64,000 nt of DNA from Anaerolineae bacterium (lineage in GTDB: Bacteria > Chloroflexota > Anaerolineae > UBA3071), in NCBI GenBank assembly GCA_029907105.1, contig JARYMM010000004.1:65364-129363 (forward strand), given 5' to 3'. The translations under genes and the position numbers were made by a program. Position 1 is the first letter of the stretch. Each line of letters begins with the position of its first letter. Shown piece after piece: positions 55,402 to 63,897 of this stretch. Under the pieces are notes generated by a model. It was not told the origin of the DNA and made no database searches. It saw only the letters and a program-made list of their open reading frames with translations.

Positions 55402-55905
55402 CTACCTACGCTCCTCAAAAACGGCCCGTAAGTGCTCCTCGAGGGCAGCCAGTTTCCCGGCCAGGCTGCCATCAATGAACTGGTCTTTGGCCTCGACCAC
55501 AAAGCCACCAATGAGCGAGGGGTCAACCTCCAGATGCAAGAGAAACTCCTGGCCGAAACGTTCCCTGAGCCGCTCTTTGAGGATAGCTCGCTCCTCTTGG
55601 CTCAGGGGCACAGCGCTCCTGACGCGGGCCACCGTCCCGGCTGCCTGTGCTTGCTGCCTGGCTATCCGCTGGAACTCCATAGCCGAGAAGACTATCGAAA
55701 GCACGGGCAACGTTGCGGCTGGTTCCTCACGTGCTACCCGTCTGAGTTCTCTGGCCAAGCCGTCCAGCAGTTCCACCTGCTCCAAGGACACCAGATCCTG
55801 TTCACGCAACCGCCGGCCGATAGCCTCCAAATGGTCAAGCCAGGCCTCCGTGCCCATGGAACTACCTGACGGCTTCGGCACTTCCGTCAGCATTGCTTCT
55901 CTCAT
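55402..55905 (-). CDS. atpH: F-type ATP synthase subunit delta
   Basis: OSCP/delta-like 167 aa directly after the b subunit gene. Confidence 0.7.
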   Translation of the reverse strand: MREAMLTEVPKPSGSSMGTEAWLDHLEAIGRRLREQDLVSLEQVELLDGLARELRRVAREEPAATLPVLSIVFSAMEFQRIARQQAQAAGTVARVRSAVPLSQEERAILKERLRERFGQEFLLHLEVDPSLIGGFVVEAKDQFIDGSLAGKLAALEEHLRAVFEERR

Positions 55906-56438
55906 TCGAGTTCACCCACCTCTGCCAGCTCTGCCAGAAACTCGCTGATCAAGCGACGCTGCGTCGCTTCATCCACCATGGTCTGCGCAACCATCTTGCG
56001 CGTAGCCAGCATAACCAGGTCCACCGCCTGTCTGGACAACTCGGCCATAGCTTGCTGGCGCTGGGCCTCGAACTCCTCGCGCTCCTTGGCTATGCATTGG
56101 CGTGCTTCTTCCTCCGCCTTAGCCAAGATACCCTCCTTGAGTTCTTCGGCTTCCTGCGCTGCCCTATTGAGGATCGCCCGCCTTTCCCTCTCTGCGTACT
56201 CGATCCTCTGTTGATATACTGCCTCGGCTTCCGTCGCCCTCTTGTCAGCTATTTGGGCATCCTCTATGCCTTTCTTGATGCGTGCCGAACGCTCATCAAG
56301 CATCGCCAGAAAGCGCTTGAAGAGGAACTTGTAAAGCGCGGCGAACAGAATGATGAGATTAAGGAGTTGGGCTAACAGATACGTAAAGTTGATACCTAAC
56401 GGTGCTCCTCCCTCCAAGCTGCCACCTCCCTCATCCAA
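55902..56438 (-). CDS. atpF: F-type ATP synthase subunit b
   Basis: N-terminal TM followed by a long charged helix. Confidence 0.75.
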   Translation of the reverse strand: MDEGGGSLEGGAPLGINFTYLLAQLLNLIILFAALYKFLFKRFLAMLDERSARIKKGIEDAQIADKRATEAEAVYQQRIEYAERERRAILNRAAQEAEELKEGILAKAEEEARQCIAKEREEFEAQRQQAMAELSRQAVDLVMLATRKMVAQTMVDEATQRRLISEFLAELAEVGELE

Positions 56439-56649
56439 CGAACTTGATGGCTAAGGCCACAACCAGGGCATAGATAGCGATAGCCTCGGTCAGAGCCAAC
56501 GCCAGGATCAGGTTAGCGCTGATTGACGGCCCGGCCTCAGGGTTGCGCCCCAGCGATCTCATTGCCTCGGTCGAGAACCGACCGATCATTGCCGCTGGCA
56601 CCATGGCTCCCAAGACAATGGTGATCGCTGCCAGTAAGTTTCTGTCCAT
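56431..56649 (-). CDS. atpE: F-type ATP synthase subunit c
   Basis: Two-helix hairpin with LTEAIAIYALVVAL ion-binding glutamate. Confidence 0.85.
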   Translation of the reverse strand: MDRNLLAAITIVLGAMVPAAMIGRFSTEAMRSLGRNPEAGPSISANLILALALTEAIAIYALVVALAIKFVG

Positions 56650-56702
56650 TCTTTCATTCTCCTTTCATAGCTTATCATAAATGGCTTATGACCTGCCGCT
56701 TG

Positions 56703-57569
56703 TTAATGGTGAGTGGTGGCCATCCTCAGAAAGACCAGTGTCAGTGTGGCGAAGATAAAGGCCTGAATGAAGCCAACGAAGAGCTCCAGGAACACAAAAA
56801 TCAAGGTGACAGGATAGGGAATGATGGCCAATTGCCTGAAGATTTGGAAGAAGAGCATGGCGGTGACGATGAGCAGCACTTCGCCAGCGAAGATGTTCCC
56901 GAAGAGCCGGAAGGAAAAGGAAAGCAGCTTGGTCAATTCATCGAAGATCTCCAGCACTCCGATGAAGGCATCAATGACCGCATTCATCAACGTTATGAGC
57001 AGACCCTTGCGCGGTCGCAAACCCACCAGGCTCTTGAAGAAGTCCACAAAGCCGCTCACCCTGACAAACCGACTAACGTAGCGGAAGAAACCCTGGAGCC
57101 TGATGCCATAGATCTGAGTACCAAACACGGAGAACAGGGCCAGAGCAAGCGTGGTATTCAGATCAGTGTTGGCGGAACGAAGGAGGGGAACATAGACCTC
57201 CTCGCCATGATGGTGACCCAAGATGAAGATGCTGCCGAAGCCCGGCAAGATGGCTCCTAACCAGTTGGACAACAGGATGAAGAAGAAAATAGTGGCAGAA
57301 AAAGGGAAGAAAATGCGAGCCTTGTCGCCGGTCCTGGCTTGAGCCACGCTCTTGTAAAACATCTCCAGGACCGTCTCGACAACGTTCTGAAAGCCAGTGG
57401 GGATAAGCTTCATTCTCCTACCGGCAAGGATCGATACGACAATGAGAATGATCATTGTCAGCCAACTGGCGATCATGGAGTTGGTCACAGGGAAACCCAG
57501 GATCTGGAAGACCTTCTCCGCCTCAAGGGTGATCCCAGGCGTGTCCGTTATTGACCCGATTCCAAACAT
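56703..57569 (-). CDS. atpB: F-type ATP synthase subunit a
   Basis: Conserved LSFSFRLFGNIFAGE arginine region; start chosen at MFGIG. Confidence 0.8.
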   Translation of the reverse strand: MFGIGSITDTPGITLEAEKVFQILGFPVTNSMIASWLTMIILIVVSILAGRRMKLIPTGFQNVVETVLEMFYKSVAQARTGDKARIFFPFSATIFFFILLSNWLGAILPGFGSIFILGHHHGEEVYVPLLRSANTDLNTTLALALFSVFGTQIYGIRLQGFFRYVSRFVRVSGFVDFFKSLVGLRPRKGLLITLMNAVIDAFIGVLEIFDELTKLLSFSFRLFGNIFAGEVLLIVTAMLFFQIFRQLAIIPYPVTLIFVFLELFVGFIQAFIFATLTLVFLRMATTHH

Positions 57570-58039
57570 CACGAATCCCCCTTCTTGCCTTCCTCCCTCA
57601 GTTGCCTCGCAAGCAAAAAAGACAAACGATGGATGCCCACCAAGCCAACTACAATCCCAAGAACCGTAAGGAACAGGGTGACCCAGGGGCGAGTCTGCAA
57701 TCTGCCATCGAGCCACAGGCCTAGGAAGAGACCCATCAGGACCGGAGCGACCACCATTAGCCCGGAGCAGGTGACGAACGCCAGAGAACGCAGGATGGCC
57801 CTCGTGGGTATCTCCGCCTTCTGTTTGGCAGCCTCCTGCTCCGCAACTGGGGAAACCAAACGATAACTGCCTACGATAGCAACCAGAGTCCCGACAGCTA
57901 TGAGAACCAGGGTGGCCACAGGAGTGATCCCTAGCCTGCTATCAACCCACAAGCCCAGGAAGAGACAAGCAAGGATCGAGGCGACCACCATCACCCCCAC
58001 CTGTGTAGCGAGGCTTACAGAGCGGAGAATCTCGTACAT
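57569..58039 (-). CDS. atpZ: ATP synthase protein I-like (AtpZ/AtpI), tandemly duplicated
   Basis: Two roughly 70-aa repeats (ILACLFLGLWVDSRLG... and VLMGLFLGLWLDGRLQ...); first gene of the atp cluster. Confidence 0.55.
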   Translation of the reverse strand: MYEILRSVSLATQVGVMVVASILACLFLGLWVDSRLGITPVATLVLIAVGTLVAIVGSYRLVSPVAEQEAAKQKAEIPTRAILRSLAFVTCSGLMVVAPVLMGLFLGLWLDGRLQTRPWVTLFLTVLGIVVGLVGIHRLSFLLARQLREEGKKGDS

Positions 58040-58113: not shown

Positions 58114-59583
58114 TCAAATTGCAAGCAGCCGGGCCACACCTTGCGCCAACTGGATGAATGGCTGCGGGAAGACTCCTATCCCCAGTACCACAGCCATGCA
58201 GACCAGCAGTGCCACGCGCAACTCCGGCGCGGCAGGGATAGGGGCCGCCTCCTTGGGAGGAAGGAAGAACCCCTGCCGCACGACGTTAAAGTAGTAGTAC
58301 AGCGAGATGACGCCATTGAGCACCCCAATGGCGGCCAGCAGGTAGGACTGCGTGCGGATGGCTGAGGCAAAGATGAGCACTTTGCCGAAGAAGCCGGCGG
58401 TGGGCGGGATGCCCACCAGTGACAGGAAGAAGACCACCATTCCTGCCGCCAGCCACGGCGAGCGGCGCATCAATCCCGCATAATCCTCGATCTCATCGGA
58501 GCCGGTGGCATTGGAAAAGGCAATGACCACGGCGAACAGCCCCAGGTTGGCGAACAGGTAGACCAACAGGTAGAGCAGCACACCCTGCAGGCCGTAGTTG
58601 TCGGCCCCCAGGCAAGCCAAACCGATAAGGATGTATCCCGCCTGGGCGATGCTGGAGTAGGCGATCATGCGCTTGATGTTCTTCTGCACGATGGCCACCA
58701 CGTTGCCCAGAGTCATGGTCACGATGGAGATAGCCGCCAGCAGCGCTGTCCAGTCAGCCTCGAACTGCGGCAAACCGATGATCAGTACGCGCAGCAACAC
58801 GGCGAAGCCGGCCGCCTTCGGCCCGACGGACAGGAAGGCGGTGACCGGCGTGGGAGCGCCCTCGTAGGCGTCGGGTGCCCACTGGTGGAAGGGCACGGCG
58901 GCGATCTTGAAGCCCAGGCCGGCGAAGAGCAAAACCATGGCCGCAAACACTACCCAGTGCAGCTCGCTCATGCTCGCCGGATCGCTGAAGAACTCGGCGA
59001 TGCCGCGCAGGTCTGTCGTGCCGGTGATGCCGTAGAACAACGACATGCCATAAAGCATCGCCGCCGAGACGATGGCCCCGTATAGGAAGTATTTGATGGC
59101 CGCCTCGTTGGACTTGGCATCGCCTCGCAGGTAACCGGTGAGCACGTACGAAGTGACGCTTAGCAGCTCGACGGAGATGTAGATGAGCACCAGGTTGGTG
59201 GCGGCCGCCATCAAGGCGATACCTAGCGCGGCAAAAAGCAGGAAAGCGTAAAACTCGCCGCGATACGGGGTCTTGCCGCGCACAAACTCCACCGAGAAAA
59301 CGACCACCAGGGCGGCGACCAGGACGGCCATAAGGCAGATGAACATCGCCAGAGCGTCCACATCGAGCATGGTCGCCAGCGCCGAAACGCCACCGCCCAG
59401 CCCCCTCCAGACGACGATCACCGCCGCCAGCGCACCACCGAGCCCGACCAGGGTCAGATAAGGCAGCCAGTCTTTCTTGCCCTCGTCATCCTTCCAGATC
59501 ATGTCCAGGAGCAGGATACCCAGACCTCCGGCCAAGAGGACGAGTTCCGGTGAAAGCAAGGCGAGCGTCTTTGCAAGCGTCAA
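58114..59583 (-). CDS. nuoN: NADH-quinone oxidoreductase subunit N
   Basis: 489-aa antiporter-like subunit; last gene of the nuoKLMN run. Confidence 0.8.
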   Translation of the reverse strand: MTLAKTLALLSPELVLLAGGLGILLLDMIWKDDEGKKDWLPYLTLVGLGGALAAVIVVWRGLGGGVSALATMLDVDALAMFICLMAVLVAALVVVFSVEFVRGKTPYRGEFYAFLLFAALGIALMAAATNLVLIYISVELLSVTSYVLTGYLRGDAKSNEAAIKYFLYGAIVSAAMLYGMSLFYGITGTTDLRGIAEFFSDPASMSELHWVVFAAMVLLFAGLGFKIAAVPFHQWAPDAYEGAPTPVTAFLSVGPKAAGFAVLLRVLIIGLPQFEADWTALLAAISIVTMTLGNVVAIVQKNIKRMIAYSSIAQAGYILIGLACLGADNYGLQGVLLYLLVYLFANLGLFAVVIAFSNATGSDEIEDYAGLMRRSPWLAAGMVVFFLSLVGIPPTAGFFGKVLIFASAIRTQSYLLAAIGVLNGVISLYYYFNVVRQGFFLPPKEAAPIPAAPELRVALLVCMAVVLGIGVFPQPFIQLAQGVARLLAI

Positions 59584-59771
59584 GGGCTAACCTCCGAAAT
59601 CAAACGAATGACCAATGACCAACGCCATCCACTACATCCCGCTCGTCTTTTGTCCTTGGTCGTTGGTCACCAGCCAGTTTGCGGTGCAAACGTGGGGCAG
59701 ATTTCCCAGTCTGTCCTTGAAGCAGGCTAGAAAGCCTGCTCCACATCCCATTACGCACCGCCGCGTACGGG

Positions 59772-61292
59772 CTACAGTTTGGCCAACAACGCAGTCGTGG
59801 CGTCGTTGAGCAGGTTGACGATGAAGGCGGGGTAGACGCCAATGGCAAACATAAAAAGCACCAACGGCCACATGGTCACTTTCTCGAAGGTGGCCATGTC
59901 CACCAGCTTGCCGCCCCAGCGTTCCTCGTTGAACGTGCCCAGGAACATGTACTGGATGATCTTCCACAGGATGTAGCCGGCCGTCACCACGATGCCCACA
60001 GCGCCGATGACAGCGTAGATAGGAATGATATCGAAGGCCCCGCGGAAGACCATGAACTCCGCCCAGAAGCCGGCCAGCCCCGGCAGACCCAAGGAGGCGA
60101 AGCCAGTCACGGCGAAGATGCCGTAGTAGGTGGGCAGTTTGCTGGCCAGCCCGCCGAAGGCTTTCAACTCTCGCGTGTGCGCCTGTTCGTAGATGATGCC
60201 CACGAGGAAGAACAAGCCGCCGGTGATGATACCGTGGTTGAACATCTGCAAAACCGCCCCATTCAAAGCGATGGCCGCGCTCGTTTCCTTCCCCGGCATC
60301 CGCAGCGCAAAGGCCGCCGCGGCGATACCCAACATCACGTAGCCCATGTGGCTCACCGAGGAATAGGCGATGAGACGCTTGAGGTCCCATTGGGCCATGC
60401 AAACGAAGGCCCCGTAGACAATGCTGATCACAGCCAGGATGCCGACGACCCAGGCATAGTAACTGAAGGCTTCGGAGAAGATTGGCAAGGCGATACGTAC
60501 CATACCGTAGGCCCCCAGCTTCAGCAGGATGCCCGCCAGGATCACACTGCCGGCTGTGGGGGCCTCCGTATGGGCATCAGGCAGCCAGGTGTGGAAGGGG
60601 AAGGAAGGCACCTTGATAGCGAAGCCGACGAAGAAGGCCCAAAAGGCCAGGCTCACCGGGACAATGTTGGCGGCGAAGGGACGTATCAGATGAAACTTCT
60701 CTGTGGCTTCGAGGATATCGAAACTGCCCACATTGAAGTAGACGTAGAGAATGGCCAGCAGCATGGCAACGCTGCCGATCAGCGTGTAGAGGAAGAACTT
60801 GATCGCCGCGTATTCCCGTCGCGCCCCGCCCCAGATGCCGATGAGAAAATACATGGGCACCAGGCCGATCTCCCAGAAAACGTAGAAGAGCACGAAGTCC
60901 AGAGACATGAAGACGCCGTACATGCCCATCTGCAGCAGCAGAAAGAACAGGTAGTACTCTTTGACCTGCTTCTTGATGGTGTAGGCGGAGTAGAAGTGAG
61001 ACAGCGTGCTCAAGAGCGAGGTCAGGAAGACCAGGGGCACGCTGATTCCGTCCACCCCCACATGGTAGCGGATCTTCAGTACGGGGATCCAGTTGTAGAT
61101 CTCCTCGAACTGCATCCCGCCTGCCGAGCGCGTGTAAGCGATCCACAGGTAGATGGATAGCGCCAGGGGAATGAAGCTGAGGACAATGGAAAACCAGCGG
61201 ATCAGTTGCTCCTTCTCCTTGGGTATGAGCCAAACGACGATTGCTCCCAGCAAGGGAAAGAATAGGATCACGGTCAGAAGCGGAAAGCCCAT
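59772..61292 (-). CDS. nuoM: NADH-quinone oxidoreductase subunit M
   Basis: 506-aa antiporter-like subunit. Confidence 0.85.
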   Translation of the reverse strand: MGFPLLTVILFFPLLGAIVVWLIPKEKEQLIRWFSIVLSFIPLALSIYLWIAYTRSAGGMQFEEIYNWIPVLKIRYHVGVDGISVPLVFLTSLLSTLSHFYSAYTIKKQVKEYYLFFLLLQMGMYGVFMSLDFVLFYVFWEIGLVPMYFLIGIWGGARREYAAIKFFLYTLIGSVAMLLAILYVYFNVGSFDILEATEKFHLIRPFAANIVPVSLAFWAFFVGFAIKVPSFPFHTWLPDAHTEAPTAGSVILAGILLKLGAYGMVRIALPIFSEAFSYYAWVVGILAVISIVYGAFVCMAQWDLKRLIAYSSVSHMGYVMLGIAAAAFALRMPGKETSAAIALNGAVLQMFNHGIITGGLFFLVGIIYEQAHTRELKAFGGLASKLPTYYGIFAVTGFASLGLPGLAGFWAEFMVFRGAFDIIPIYAVIGAVGIVVTAGYILWKIIQYMFLGTFNEERWGGKLVDMATFEKVTMWPLVLFMFAIGVYPAFIVNLLNDATTALLAKL

Positions 61293-61343
61293 GTTGTTTC
61301 CTCCTTGGAACTTAGTTCTATGTCTTCTTCTCGCTATCGCCTG

Positions 61344-63578
61344 TTACCGCAGCAGATACACGGCCACCAACAGGATCAAGGCCGCGACAACCACCAGGGC
61401 GTAGTTCTGCACCCGGCCGGTCTGGATGAGCCGGAAGGCCCGGCCCACCCGTTCGGTGAACCAGCCGCTGAAGTTCACCAACCCGTCTACGATGTGCAGG
61501 TCAATCCAATCCCAGGCCGCTGACAGCGCCGCGCCGGTCCGTCCGACCAGGTTCACCGCGCTGTCAATGATGGGCATGTCCACGAAGTGGAAAAGGGCGA
61601 CGGACAGGGCCACTCCCACCTTCCCTGCCAGGTTGACTGCTCCATCAATGACTGGCAGATCAAAGAAACGATATAGCCCAGAAGCGAGAGCTGCGCCCCC
61701 TCTGCCCACAGCGTTGACCAGGGGATCAATCACCCAGCGGTTGTCGAACTTAAAGAAAAGCTCGGCCAGGCCAATGGCACCCCGCACCACGGTAGCCTGG
61801 TACAATTCGTCGAAGTAGTACTTGTTCTTGAGCACCGTGTGCACCGGCCCCAGCGCTTTCACCAGCGGATCGGGCTGGCCTTTGGCCAACGGTTTGCGCC
61901 CGTACACCAGCCAGCCGAAGAAGAGGCCGGACACGGCCAGCACTGCCGAGAGCAACATCACCGGCACACTGAGCGGCGTGGCCGCAAACTCGTGCCCCAC
62001 GAAGTGATGGAACCAGTTGCGCCCGTGGCCGATGATCTCCTCCGGAATGCCGGCAAAGCCCAGCGTCAGGGCGAAGAAAGCCAGCAGCATCAGCGGCACA
62101 GTCATGCTGTGCGGCGTCTCATGAGCGTGCTCAGCGTGGTGGCTGCGCGGCTGGCCCAGGAAGGTCAGACTGATCTGCCGGCCGGTATAGAAAGCAGTCA
62201 AGAAAGCAGCAATGGTCAGCAGCAGCCAGACGTAGAAAGGCCAGGAGACCACGCCCTCGTGCATGAACCCTTCCCAGGCGTGGGCCAGGATCTCATCTTT
62301 GCTCCAGAAGCCGGCAGTGATGAGAGGGAAGCCGGAAAGGGCAAAGGCGCCGGCGACAAAGGTCCAGAAGGTGATAGGCATCTTCTGGCGCAAGCCGCCC
62401 ATGTGCATCATGTCCTGCTCGTGATGGCAGCCGATGATCACCGAGCCGGAGCCCAGAAAGAGCAGCGCCTTGAAGAAGGAATGGGTGATCAGGTGAAAGG
62501 CGCCGGCCACGTAGGCGCCAATGCCCAACGCGGCGATCATGTAGCCGAGCTGGCTGATGGTGGAGTAGGCCAGCACCTTCTTGATGTCGTTCTGGGCCAC
62601 GGCGATGGTGGAGGCAAACAAGGCCGTGAAGGCCCCGATGAAGGCCACCACACCGACCTGCGGCCCATGCTCCACCGCAGCGAACAGCGGGAACATGCGC
62701 GCCACCAGGTACACACCAGCCGAGACCATGGTCGCCGCATGGATGAGCGCCGAGACGGGGGTGGGGCCCTCCATGGCGTCAGGAAGCCAGACGTGCAGCG
62801 GGAACTGCGCCGACTTGCCCACCGCCCCGCCGAAGATGAGGATGGCGATAACCGTGGCCACCGGCAACGTCCCCACCAGCGGCAGCGTTACCTGCGCCTC
62901 CGCCAGCATGTGCAAGGTCTCGTGCGAGAAAATGTGCTCGAAGGTCAGGTTGCCCACGCGGGAATAGAGGAAAAGCATGCCCAGCAGCATGATCACGTCG
63001 CCAATGCGGGTGGTGATGAAGGCCTTCAGCCCCGCCTGCTTGGGCGTGATCTGCCTGGGGTCGGGGTATTTCTTCTCAAACCAGAAGCCGATGAGCAGGT
63101 ACGAACAGAGCCCCATGATTTCCCAGAAAATAAAGAGCAACAGCAGGTTATCGGCGAGGATCAGCCCCAGCATCCCCGTGGCGAAGAGGGAGATGTAGGC
63201 GAAGAAACGGGAGTAGCGGGGATCCACGTGCTCAGTGCCGTACCCCATGTAGCCCACGGAGTAGATGAAGATCATCAGGCAGACAAAGGGCACCATGAAG
63301 AGCATGATCGCCGTCAGCGGGTCAATCATCACCCCCGTCTCGAACCAGGTGTTCCCCGTGGGGAACCAATCAAAGGTCAGCCGGACGGGATGTTCGCCGA
63401 AGTGCGGCGTGAAGACAGCAGTAAAGAAGGTAAGCCAGCCGAGGATCCAGGAGAGGCCAATGCCGCCGATGGCCAGGCTGTGGCTCAGTTTCTTGTTGGG
63501 ATTGGCCCCCAGCACGATAAGCACGAAGGCCGTGAAAGGAAACAGAGGGATGAGCCAGAGAAGATTGAACATGAACAT
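61344..63578 (-). CDS. nuoL: NADH-quinone oxidoreductase subunit L, unusually long (744 aa) with a repeated lateral-helix motif
   Basis: Antiporter-like core plus a C-terminus with four ID-x2-VN-x2-G units and then the RLIQTGRVQNYAL terminal motif. Confidence 0.85.
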   Translation of the reverse strand: MFMFNLLWLIPLFPFTAFVLIVLGANPNKKLSHSLAIGGIGLSWILGWLTFFTAVFTPHFGEHPVRLTFDWFPTGNTWFETGVMIDPLTAIMLFMVPFVCLMIFIYSVGYMGYGTEHVDPRYSRFFAYISLFATGMLGLILADNLLLLFIFWEIMGLCSYLLIGFWFEKKYPDPRQITPKQAGLKAFITTRIGDVIMLLGMLFLYSRVGNLTFEHIFSHETLHMLAEAQVTLPLVGTLPVATVIAILIFGGAVGKSAQFPLHVWLPDAMEGPTPVSALIHAATMVSAGVYLVARMFPLFAAVEHGPQVGVVAFIGAFTALFASTIAVAQNDIKKVLAYSTISQLGYMIAALGIGAYVAGAFHLITHSFFKALLFLGSGSVIIGCHHEQDMMHMGGLRQKMPITFWTFVAGAFALSGFPLITAGFWSKDEILAHAWEGFMHEGVVSWPFYVWLLLTIAAFLTAFYTGRQISLTFLGQPRSHHAEHAHETPHSMTVPLMLLAFFALTLGFAGIPEEIIGHGRNWFHHFVGHEFAATPLSVPVMLLSAVLAVSGLFFGWLVYGRKPLAKGQPDPLVKALGPVHTVLKNKYYFDELYQATVVRGAIGLAELFFKFDNRWVIDPLVNAVGRGGAALASGLYRFFDLPVIDGAVNLAGKVGVALSVALFHFVDMPIIDSAVNLVGRTGAALSAAWDWIDLHIVDGLVNFSGWFTERVGRAFRLIQTGRVQNYALVVVAALILLVAVYLLR

Positions 63579-63579
63579 C

Positions 63580-63897
63580 CTATCCTCTCAACAAATCAAT
63601 TTCCTCGACGTTCACGGTGTCCCGCGAGCGGTAGATGGCAATGACCAAAGCCAGGCCGACGGCCACCTCGGCGGCGGCCACGGTCATCACGAAGATGGCG
63701 AAGAGCTGCCCGGTCAGCATCTGCGGCCGGACATAGCGCCAGAAGGCCACCAGGTTGATGTTCACGGCGTTGAGCATGAGCTCGATGCCCATCAGGATGC
63801 CGATGGCATTGCGCCGCGCCAGCGCCCCGTACAGGCCGATACAGAACAAGGCGGCGGCGACGATAAGATACCACGCTAAGGGGATTACCATTTCCAT
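63580..63897 (-). CDS. nuoK: NADH-quinone oxidoreductase subunit K
   Basis: 105 aa, 3 TM, conserved EVAVGLAL. Confidence 0.85.

What the first reader, a model, noticed from the sequence alone, without database searches (positions are those of the whole stretch)
61344..61790. NuoL about 100 aa longer than usual, with four ID-x2-VN-x2-G lateral-helix units instead of one
The C-terminal region reads VIDPLVNAVGRGG..., VIDGAVNLAGKVG..., IIDSAVNLVGRTG..., IVDGLVNFSGWFTERVGRAFRLIQTGRVQNYAL. As far as I recall, canonical NuoL has a single VDGxVNxxG start to the amphipathic coupling helix HL that lies along NuoM and NuoN. Three extra roughly 26-residue units (about 39 A each) would lengthen this rod considerably, as in complex I variants that carry additional antiporter-like subunits. 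Only one nuoM is present here (nuoK-L-M-N, with an odd 188-bp gap before nuoN), so any extra subunits would be encoded elsewhere.
Basis: partly seen in the sequence, partly recalled or inferred. Interest (0 to 1): 0.55.

Follow-up and report, generated by a model that had tools for sequence, protein, structure and literature searches.

The report
NuoL with tandemly repeated lateral helix
The outermost proton-pump subunit of this bacterium's respiratory complex I has a membrane-surface connecting helix about 2.6 times the usual length, made of three extra copies of a 26-27-residue module, yet the operon encodes only the usual three pump subunits, so what the extra length binds is unknown.

Summary
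NuoL (window 61344-63578, minus strand, 744 aa) has four h-h-D-x-x-V-N-x-x-G motifs at residues 616, 643, 670 and 696. They define three extra 27/27/26-aa units plus the canonical terminal unit. Deleting the three units in silico gives a gap-free alignment to the tails of solved NuoL/NdhF structures, so the 80 residues sit inside the lateral helix HL, at the kink that contacts NuoM in E. coli.

This unit is the same module that occurs once in "2M" complex I, which carries a second NuoM. However, unit number does not track pump genes:
- The window has 3 extra units and one nuoM. An 88%-identical relative has 2, differing by a clean in-register 27-aa indel.
- Other relatives carry 1-5 extra units, mostly with L-M-N operons.
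- Every L-M-M-N operon examined has at least one extra unit.

The units are under purifying selection (dN/dS 0.15-0.2). AlphaFold predicts them helical, but with low confidence.

My reading: this is a real, modular, recombination-driven lengthening of HL, over-length for the subunits encoded here. Whether it binds extra pump subunits (several NuoM copies, or genes elsewhere) or lies as a spare amphipathic brace is unresolved. It is a new variant of a known kind, of moderate to high interest.

The parts
63580..63897 (-). nuoK (105 aa)
   Evidence: Pfam PF00420, E 1.6e-30
61344..63578 (-). nuoL, 744 aa including the stop codon
   Evidence: NF005141 equivalog 654.9 bits, TIGR01974, PF00361 and PF00662. 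All top Foldseek hits are NuoL/NdhF/ND5 chains.
61899..61967 (-). TM15 (aa 538-560), the distal anchor of the lateral helix
   Evidence: AF2 helix 538-560. Kyte-Doolittle 19-mer maximum 2.29.
61734..61820 (-). First canonical HL segment (aa 587-615), YYFDELY...FKFDNRW
   Evidence: Aligns to solved NdhF1 residues 578-602 and to P. denitrificans NuoL.
61653..61733 (-). Extra HL unit U1 (aa 616-642, 27 aa)
   Evidence: Unit HMM hit, 41.0 bits. Its I-D-P-L-V-N start corresponds by my sequence comparison to E. coli D563-P564-L565-N566, the HL kink that contacts NuoM (PMC3274701).
61572..61652 (-). Extra HL unit U2 (aa 643-669, 27 aa)
   Evidence: Unit HMM hit, 34.9 bits. In the 88%-identical orthologue L001, one 27-aa unit's worth spanning the U1/U2 junction is missing.
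61494..61571 (-). Extra HL unit U3 (aa 670-695, 26 aa)
   Evidence: Unit HMM hit, 38.7 bits.
61413..61493 (-). Canonical terminal HL unit (aa 696-722), IVDGLVN...LIQTGR
   Evidence: Aligns to NdhF1 residues 604-630.
61347..61412 (-). TM16 (aa 723-744), the proximal anchor
   Evidence: AF2 helix 721-743. Kyte-Doolittle 19-mer maximum 2.60.
59772..61292 (-). nuoM (506 aa), the only M-type gene. AAGGAGG Shine-Dalgarno sequence and ATG start.
   Evidence: TIGR01972 563 bits. phmmer of L/M/N against all window ORFs finds only three antiporter-like genes. RBS read.
59584..59771 (-). 188-nt nuoM-nuoN spacer with a 7-bp hairpin GCAGGCT/AGCCTGC and a GGAGG Shine-Dalgarno sequence before a TTG start
   Evidence: Sequence read. 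Function not tested.
58114..59583 (-). nuoN (489 aa)
   Evidence: TIGR01770 416.6 bits.

Best explanation
This is a genuine NuoL whose lateral helix HL has been lengthened by tandem duplication of its own building block. The block is a 26-27-residue unit: a kink or docking motif (h-h-D-x-h-V-N-x-x-G), then about 20 residues of amphipathic helix rich in small residues, ending in an invariant Asp and often a D-x-P joint.

Shown:
- The array sits exactly at the HL kink.
- Arrays grow and shrink by in-register recombination.
- The units are kept by purifying selection.
- Their number is not matched by nuoM genes in the operon.

Inferred:
- The units form a segmented amphipathic rod on the cytoplasmic membrane surface between TM15 and TM16.
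- In this organism the rod is over-length for the encoded L-M-N arm. If straight, it is about 120 A longer.
- The surplus units most likely act as additional membrane-surface brace or docking segments and do not report three separately encoded pump subunits.
- An over-long HL may leave the arm able to accept an extra M-type subunit. One sub-lineage (L083/L003) carries an M2 gene with an unchanged 2-extra-unit HL.
For: Position and canonical context:
- In-silico deletion of residues 616-695 aligns gap-free to solved tails: 6hum_F 547-649, 8qby_L 584-695, 8e9g_L 503-624.
- E. coli P564/L565/N566 form the HL kink that touches NuoM (PMC3274701).

Repeat and structure prediction:
- The repeat is significant.
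- In 162 distinct units, D3 is 100%, N7 89%, G10 85%, S/A17 98% and D24 100% conserved.
- AF2 predicts helix throughout, with breaks at 616 and 639-643 in the full-length model and at the D-x-P joints in the tail-only model. No compact fold is predicted (pTM 0.21).
- The hydrophobic-moment phase jumps about 160-180 degrees at each unit boundary, as it does at the canonical kink.
- Unit hydropathy (0.86-1.64) is below that of the TM helices (2.1-2.6).

Evolution:
- dN/dS of the extra units is 0.153 against L001 and 0.162 against L084. The core gives 0.074 and 0.195.
- Window and L001 differ by a clean 27-aa in-register indel.
- Among 121 close homologues, 12, 83, 20, 5 and 1 carry 1, 2, 3, 4 and 5 extra units.

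Gene content:
- Operons with 2-4 extra units are L-M-N: L001, L002, L084, L086, L087, L088.
- HL span is quantised at 48-50, 73-79, about 101, 127-130 and 150 aa.
- L083 and L003 have 2 extra units and carry M2. Their M1 nests inside the 1M clade and their M2 falls in the old Chloroflexi M2 clade.
Against: - Strict conservation of the docking-type motif and of unit length is what a rod pitched to real partner subunits would also show.
- Every 2M operon seen has at least one extra unit, which favours the view that units track subunits.
- No geometry is known that places 80 surplus helical residues between fixed anchors.
- AF2 confidence in residues 630-720 is only 46-60, and model coordinates could not be inspected.
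- The rest of the genome could not be searched for orphan antiporter-like genes.
Confidence: 0.45

Rival explanations
1. Ruler model. The single NuoM protein occupies several tandem positions (L-M-M-M-M-N here). Each HL unit docks one copy, so HL length sets the number of pump modules and the H+/2e- ratio.
For: - Each unit reproduces the kink motif that touches NuoM in E. coli.
- Unit length and HL span are quantised in steps of 26-27 aa across phyla.
- The units are under purifying selection.
- All 2M operons have at least one extra unit.
- This model explains copy-number change between close relatives without any gene gain or loss.
- nuoM has the best translation-initiation context of the three genes, AAGGAGG with ATG. 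This is weak evidence.
- AF2 gives no self-packed fold for the array.
Against: - No complex I with one gene product in several positions is known.
- The 2M lineages keep two diverged M paralogues, which suggests position-specific interfaces.
- Seven pump sites per 2 e- exceed what NADH- or ferredoxin-to-menaquinone can drive at a normal proton-motive force. This is an inference from standard redox potentials.
- L083 has 2 extra units and two M genes, so the counts still do not match.
Confidence: 0.15
2. First reader's reading. Additional antiporter-like subunits (nuoM/mrpD-like) encoded elsewhere in the genome fill the extra positions.
For: - The module is the same as the HL insertion of 2M complex I (PMC9040806).
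- The L083/L003 sub-lineage does carry an M2 gene.
Against: - No further antiporter-like ORF occurs in the 64-kb window or in about 20-kb loci around eight relatives with 2-4 surplus units.
- In all 34 L-M-M-N loci the second M is inside the operon.
- Copy number differs between 88%-identical orthologues with identical operon layout.
Confidence: 0.15
3. The long rod reaches beyond its own L-M-N module. Either TM16 anchors further along the arm (NuoK/J/A/H), or the helix bridges to a neighbouring complex as a dimer or supercomplex.
For: - One surplus unit with L-M-N occurs in several phyla.
- One or two units (40-80 A) could still be accommodated along the proximal arm. This is an inference from the known arm length.
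Against: - Three to five units (120-200 A) would overshoot the arm.
- No partner is conserved. nuo-atp synteny is general in Chloroflexota, including the 2M loci, and is not specific to long HL.
Confidence: 0.1
4. The units are not a surface helix but fold into something else, such as transmembrane hairpins or an LRR-like solenoid.
For: - U2 is borderline hydrophobic (Kyte-Doolittle 1.64).
- The unit array matched RI-type 28-aa leucine-rich repeats, sharing the pattern hDxxxNxxGxxGaxALaxxL (P0122, E 1.4e-11).
Against: - Odd and even unit numbers both occur, which would flip the topology of TM16 if the units crossed the membrane.
- The hydrophobic pattern of the LRR strand, LxxLxLxxN, is not met.
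- AF2 predicts helix only.
- The homologous canonical unit is helical in solved structures.
Confidence: 0.04

Closest known systems
NuoL of '2M' complex I (Chadwick et al. 2018, ISME J; cited in PMC7117926, PMC6606698, PMC9040806)
   Same: - A ~26-28-aa insertion in the C-terminal lateral helix, at the same place and with the same architecture (kink motif plus amphipathic helix).
- Chloroflexi 2M examples read ...VDRG|VIDGVVDGTGRLGLWLGRAFSRYFDIP|VITGTGD....
   Different: - 2M complexes have exactly one extra unit, with a second nuoM between nuoM1 and nuoN (33 of 34 L-M-M-N loci here).
- The window has three extra units and one nuoM.
NuoL of Complex_I_1/_2 of 'Ca. Manganitrophaceae' (PMC9040806)
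   Same: An HL insertion of about 26 aa is present although the operon has no extra pumping subunit. The authors suggest readiness for, or transition toward or away from, extra subunits.
   Different: That case is a single insertion in Nitrospirota. Here there are tandem arrays of 2-5 units with copy-number variation, in Anaerolineae-type Chloroflexota.
Canonical NuoL/Nqo12/ND5/NdhF (E. coli 3RKO, T. thermophilus 4HE8, T. elongatus 6HUM)
   Same: - The core antiporter fold, TM15-HL-TM16 architecture and kink motif are shared.
- The best sequence match is cyanobacterial NdhF1 (E 1e-130).
   Different: The canonical HL span from the D of YFDELY to the Q of QTG is 48-50 aa. Here it is 129 aa.
MrpA / MrpD2 lateral helices (Mrp antiporter, 'green' complex I)
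   Same: A C-terminal amphipathic helix straps neighbouring antiporter-like subunits together.
   Different: The window protein scores far below the cut-offs of the MrpA models (for example NF009288, 290 bits against 1104) and sits in a nuo operon.

Membership tests
NuoL (NADH-quinone oxidoreductase subunit L) | Sequence passes curated NuoL models | tested here: met
   NF005141 equivalog 654.9 bits (cut-off 556). TIGR01974 620.8 bits (cut-off 407.5). PF00361 and PF00662 also match.
NuoL (NADH-quinone oxidoreductase subunit L) | Antiporter-like fold with a C-terminal TM15 - lateral helix - TM16 extension | tested here: met
   All top Foldseek hits are NuoL/NdhF/ND5 chains with target-normalised TM-score about 0.8. 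AF2 helices 538-560, 588-716 and 721-743. The tail aligns to solved tails once the insert is removed.
NuoL (NADH-quinone oxidoreductase subunit L) | Operon context nuoK-L-M-N | tested here: met
   Orthologous loci read nuoA(BCD)H(I)JK-L-M-N.
2M complex I | Second nuoM gene between nuoM and nuoN | tested here: not met
   There is one nuoM, and only three antiporter-like ORFs in the 64 kb.
2M complex I | About 26-aa insertion lengthening the NuoL lateral helix | tested here: met
   Present three times (27, 27 and 26 aa) at the position where 2M NuoL has one.
2M complex I | Extra pumping subunit physically present in the complex | not testable with these tools
   Needs proteomics or a structure, or at least the complete genome.
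Mrp antiporter MrpA / 'green' complex I MrpD pair | MrpA/MrpD-type sequence replacing NuoL | tested here: not met
   MrpA models score 250-290 bits against cut-offs of 937-1117.
RI-type leucine-rich repeat | LxxLxLxxN strand motif with a 28-29-aa beta-alpha unit | tested here: not met
   Only the helical half of the pattern is shared. AF2 predicts no strands.

The most novel reading that the evidence does not exclude
The lateral helix acts as a molecular ruler. Each 26-27-aa unit docks one copy of the single NuoM protein, so this enzyme would carry L + 4 M + N (six antiporter-like modules). Unequal crossing-over in nuoL would then re-gear the H+/2e- ratio between close relatives without any change in gene content. 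L-M-N operons with surplus units would be the homomeric precursors of 2M operons.
Probability: 0.15. Interest if true: 0.9.

Novelty: new variant of a known kind. Interest (0 to 1): 0.58.

Why it matters
The role of helix HL (piston, tie-rod or assembly clamp) has been debated since 2010. Published examples of a longer HL are single insertions, read as room for one extra NuoM.

This lineage of Anaerolineae-type Chloroflexota varies HL from 1 to 5 extra units while keeping an L-M-N operon. If the surplus units bind further pump modules, complex I stoichiometry would be far more plastic than thought, and could be tuned by a repeat array. If they do not, a conserved docking-type module has a second, unknown job on the membrane surface.

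Either way it gives a natural length series for testing what HL does.

Tried and rejected
- TRF on the DNA found no tandem repeat. The units are only 45-53% identical in DNA, so they are neither recent nor an assembly artefact.
- An exact-protein look-up of the window NuoL found no record.
- Chadwick et al. 2018 is not in the held library. Its content is cited only through papers that quote it.
- The search of 1.84 billion representatives with the 80-aa array gave 15 hits: NuoL proteins and short fragments, plus spurious repeat proteins of RI-LRR and IPT/TIG type. It was not useful for estimating prevalence.
- Both AlphaFold runs gave low confidence in the array, and coordinates cannot be inspected, so rod and folded geometries were not separated.
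- My regex for HL span gave false values of 230 and 241 aa for L122 and L142. On inspection both have one extra unit.
- L085 appeared to be L-M-M-N, but this is a frameshifted nuoM.
- I considered that nuo-atp gene adjacency might explain the long HL. I rejected this because the same synteny occurs at 2M loci with one extra unit.
- I considered the units as transmembrane segments. I rejected this on hydropathy and on the parity argument.

Full report
**What is there**

The minus strand of window 58114-63897 carries nuoK (63580-63897), nuoL (61344-63578, 744 aa), nuoM (59772-61292, 506 aa) and nuoN (58114-59583, 489 aa). ATP synthase Fo genes follow. Family assignments are secure:
- NuoL passes the NCBIfam equivalog NF005141 (654.9 bits, cut-off 556) and TIGR01974.
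- NuoM passes TIGR01972 and NuoN passes TIGR01770.
- The Pfam domains agree.
- An AlphaFold model of NuoL (mean pLDDT 80) finds only NuoL/NdhF/ND5 chains in the PDB.
- No other antiporter-like ORF exists in the 64 kb.

**Checking the observation**

The motif h-h-D-x-x-h-N-x-x-[GAS] occurs at residues 616, 643, 670 and 696, and nowhere else in NuoL or in 74,267 aa of other window ORFs. It delimits three extra units of 27, 27 and 26 aa (U1-U3) and the terminal unit that leads into ...LIQTGRVQNY and TM16.
- The extra units are 42-48% identical to each other in protein and 45-53% in DNA.
- The lag-27 self-comparison score is 69. The best lag in 2000 shuffles averaged -21.7 (sd 9.4, maximum 19).
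- TRF sees nothing at the DNA level, so this is an old, diverged repeat and not an assembly artefact.

**Where the extra length sits**

Against solved structures, the best match is cyanobacterial NdhF1 (6hum_F). It aligns to residues 4-608 and again to 692-737, leaving about 83 residues unmatched.

When residues 616-695 are removed in silico, the tail aligns colinearly and without gaps to 6hum_F 547-649, 8qby_L 584-695, 6tjv_F and 8e9g_L. The insert is therefore inside the lateral helix HL, between its first segment (YYFDELY...FDNRW) and its terminal unit.

That junction corresponds to E. coli D563-P564-L565-N566. This is the "kink region" of HL whose residues L565 and N566 lie closest to NuoM in 3RKO (PMC3274701). 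U1 begins I-D-P-L-V-N.

Both AlphaFold runs predict helix throughout:
- The full-length model has helices 588-615, 617-638, 644-716 and TM16 at 721-743, with pLDDT of only 46-60 over residues 630-720.
- The tail-only model has breaks at the D-x-P joints, pLDDT 53, pTM 0.21 and no compact fold.

Two sequence analyses agree with a segmented amphipathic helix and argue against transmembrane segments:
- The hydrophobic-moment phase jumps by about 160-180 degrees at each unit boundary, just as between the two canonical segments. Each boundary therefore behaves like the canonical kink.
- Unit hydropathy is below that of the TM helices.

**Relatives**

Hundreds of NuoL proteins of 680-790 aa, named Anaerolineae, Anaerolineales or Chloroflexota where named at all, share the array. 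With a unit HMM, 121 close homologues carry 1, 2, 3, 4 or 5 extra units in 12, 83, 20, 5 and 1 cases.

In 162 distinct units, D3 and D24 are invariant, N7 is 89% conserved, G10 85% and S/A17 98%. No solved structure has more than one unit.

The extra units evolve under purifying selection. dN/dS is 0.153 against the 88%-identical orthologue L001 and 0.162 against L084, which is comparable to the terminal unit, TM16 and the core.

Window and L001 differ by a clean 27-aa in-register indel that joins the head of U1 to the tail of U2. That is the signature of unequal crossing-over. P0094 has two nearly identical adjacent units.

**Does unit number track pump subunits?**

I measured the HL span (D of YFDELY to Q of QTG) and the run of antiporter-like genes after nuoL in 80 GTDB loci, 80 metagenome loci and eight looked-up contigs.

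The span is quantised:

| HL span (aa) | Extra units |
|---|---|
| 48-50 | 0 |
| 73-79 | 1 |
| about 101 | 2 |
| 127-130 (window = 129) | 3 |
| 150 | 4 |

Gene content against unit number:
- L-M-M-N (2M) loci come from Thermoflexus, Anaerolineaceae, Acidobacteria and Verrucomicrobia. All have at least one extra unit: 33 have one, L083 has two, and none has zero. This matches the published 26-aa insertion of 2M complex I (PMC9040806, PMC6606698, PMC7117926).
- The converse fails. L-M-N loci have zero (11), one (about 35), two (L001, L085, L088), three (window, L084, L086, L087) or four (L002) extra units.
- The L-M-N loci with one extra unit span Caldilineaceae, Ignavibacteria, Bacteroidota, Zixibacteria, Omnitrophota, Actinomycetes and Bacillota.
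- In an NJ tree, the M2 of L083/L003 falls in the old Chloroflexi M2 clade, while their M1 nests inside the one-M multi-unit clade. An M2 gene therefore came or went without any change in HL length.
- Three loci (L008, L096, L104) lengthen the first HL segment by a 22-23-aa hydrophilic insert that is not a repeat.

**Interpretation**

Shown:
- The array is a modular, recombination-driven and selected lengthening of HL.
- It is built from the same module that occurs once in 2M complex I.
- Its copy number is decoupled from the number of nuoM genes in the operon.

Inferred:
- The array is a segmented amphipathic rod on the cytoplasmic membrane surface. If straight, it is about 120 A longer than an L-M-N arm needs (80 residues x 1.5 A).

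I consider it most likely (about 0.45) that the surplus units do not correspond to three separately encoded pump subunits and serve as extra surface or docking segments. The rivals remain live:
- Several copies of the single NuoM measured out by HL, the ruler model (about 0.15).
- Anchoring further along the arm, or bridging to another complex (about 0.1).
- A non-rod fold (about 0.04).

Evidence favouring real partners: the conserved kink motif, the strict 26-27-aa quantisation across phyla, and the lack of a self-packed fold in AlphaFold.

Evidence favouring no extra pump subunits:
- Copy number varies between near-identical operons.
- In 2M lineages the extra gene is kept in the operon as a diverged paralogue.
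- Seven pump sites per 2 e- would exceed what NADH- or ferredoxin-to-menaquinone can drive at a normal proton-motive force. This is my inference from standard potentials.

**Novelty**

A longer HL is known from 2M complex I, and HL insertions without an extra subunit have been noted in "Ca. Manganitrophaceae" (PMC9040806). I found no paper in the held library describing tandem arrays of HL units, their copy-number variation, or their occurrence in one-M operons. Chadwick et al. 2018 itself could not be read. I therefore rate this a new variant of a known kind.

Noticed in passing
window 55402-58039 (minus strand); loci L001, L011, L014, L017, L084-L088 and others: nuoN is followed directly by ATP synthase Fo-type genes (atpI-like, a, c, b, delta). 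The same nuo-atp adjacency occurs in many Chloroflexota loci, both 2M and one-M. An H+-pyrophosphatase gene lies nearby in L084 and L087.
   Followed up: partly
window 59584-59771: The 188-nt nuoM-nuoN spacer holds a 7-bp hairpin (GCAGGCT-TTCT-AGCCTGC, about 59722-59739) and a GGAGG Shine-Dalgarno sequence before the TTG start of nuoN. The orthologous spacers are 92 nt (L001) and 104 nt (L084). It may be an mRNA processing or stability element.
   Followed up: no
L001 7833-8573: In the 88%-identical orthologous operon, a 246-aa nucleotidyltransferase + HEPN gene (toxin-antitoxin-like) is inserted between nuoL and nuoM.
   Followed up: no
L008, L096, L104 (NuoL tails): Another way to lengthen HL: a 22-23-aa hydrophilic insert (for example AQKEGPAGKTGTADSVRVQGG) inside the first HL segment, in addition to one repeat unit, in L-M-N operons.
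   Followed up: no
L083 13791-15275; L003 5385-6869: Within the one-M, multi-unit NuoL clade, two relatives carry an M2 gene of the old Chloroflexi M2 type while keeping two extra HL units. In L003 no nuoN follows M2 on the contig.
   Followed up: partly
P0122, P0135 (hits to window aa 616-695): The HL unit array matches RI-type 28-aa leucine-rich repeats of eukaryote-like NLR proteins (E 1.4e-11, 7 stretches), sharing the pattern hDxxxNxxGxxGaxALaxxL. I judge this to be convergent periodic similarity, not homology.
   Followed up: partly
window NuoL aa 478-490 (about nt 62109-62147): A His-rich loop, RSHHAEHAHETPH, is conserved across the family consensus (HHAEHAHETP) and resembles HHAHDHAHESP in the P. 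denitrificans NuoL structure 8qby_L.
   Followed up: no
L038-L043, L051-L053 and similar: Many Acidobacteria and Verrucomicrobia 2M loci have a degenerate HL unit that lacks the IDGxVN motif (for example DRWIWGGAV...LDxxVVNxGFDxGC). The kink motif is therefore not universal among extended HLs.
   Followed up: no
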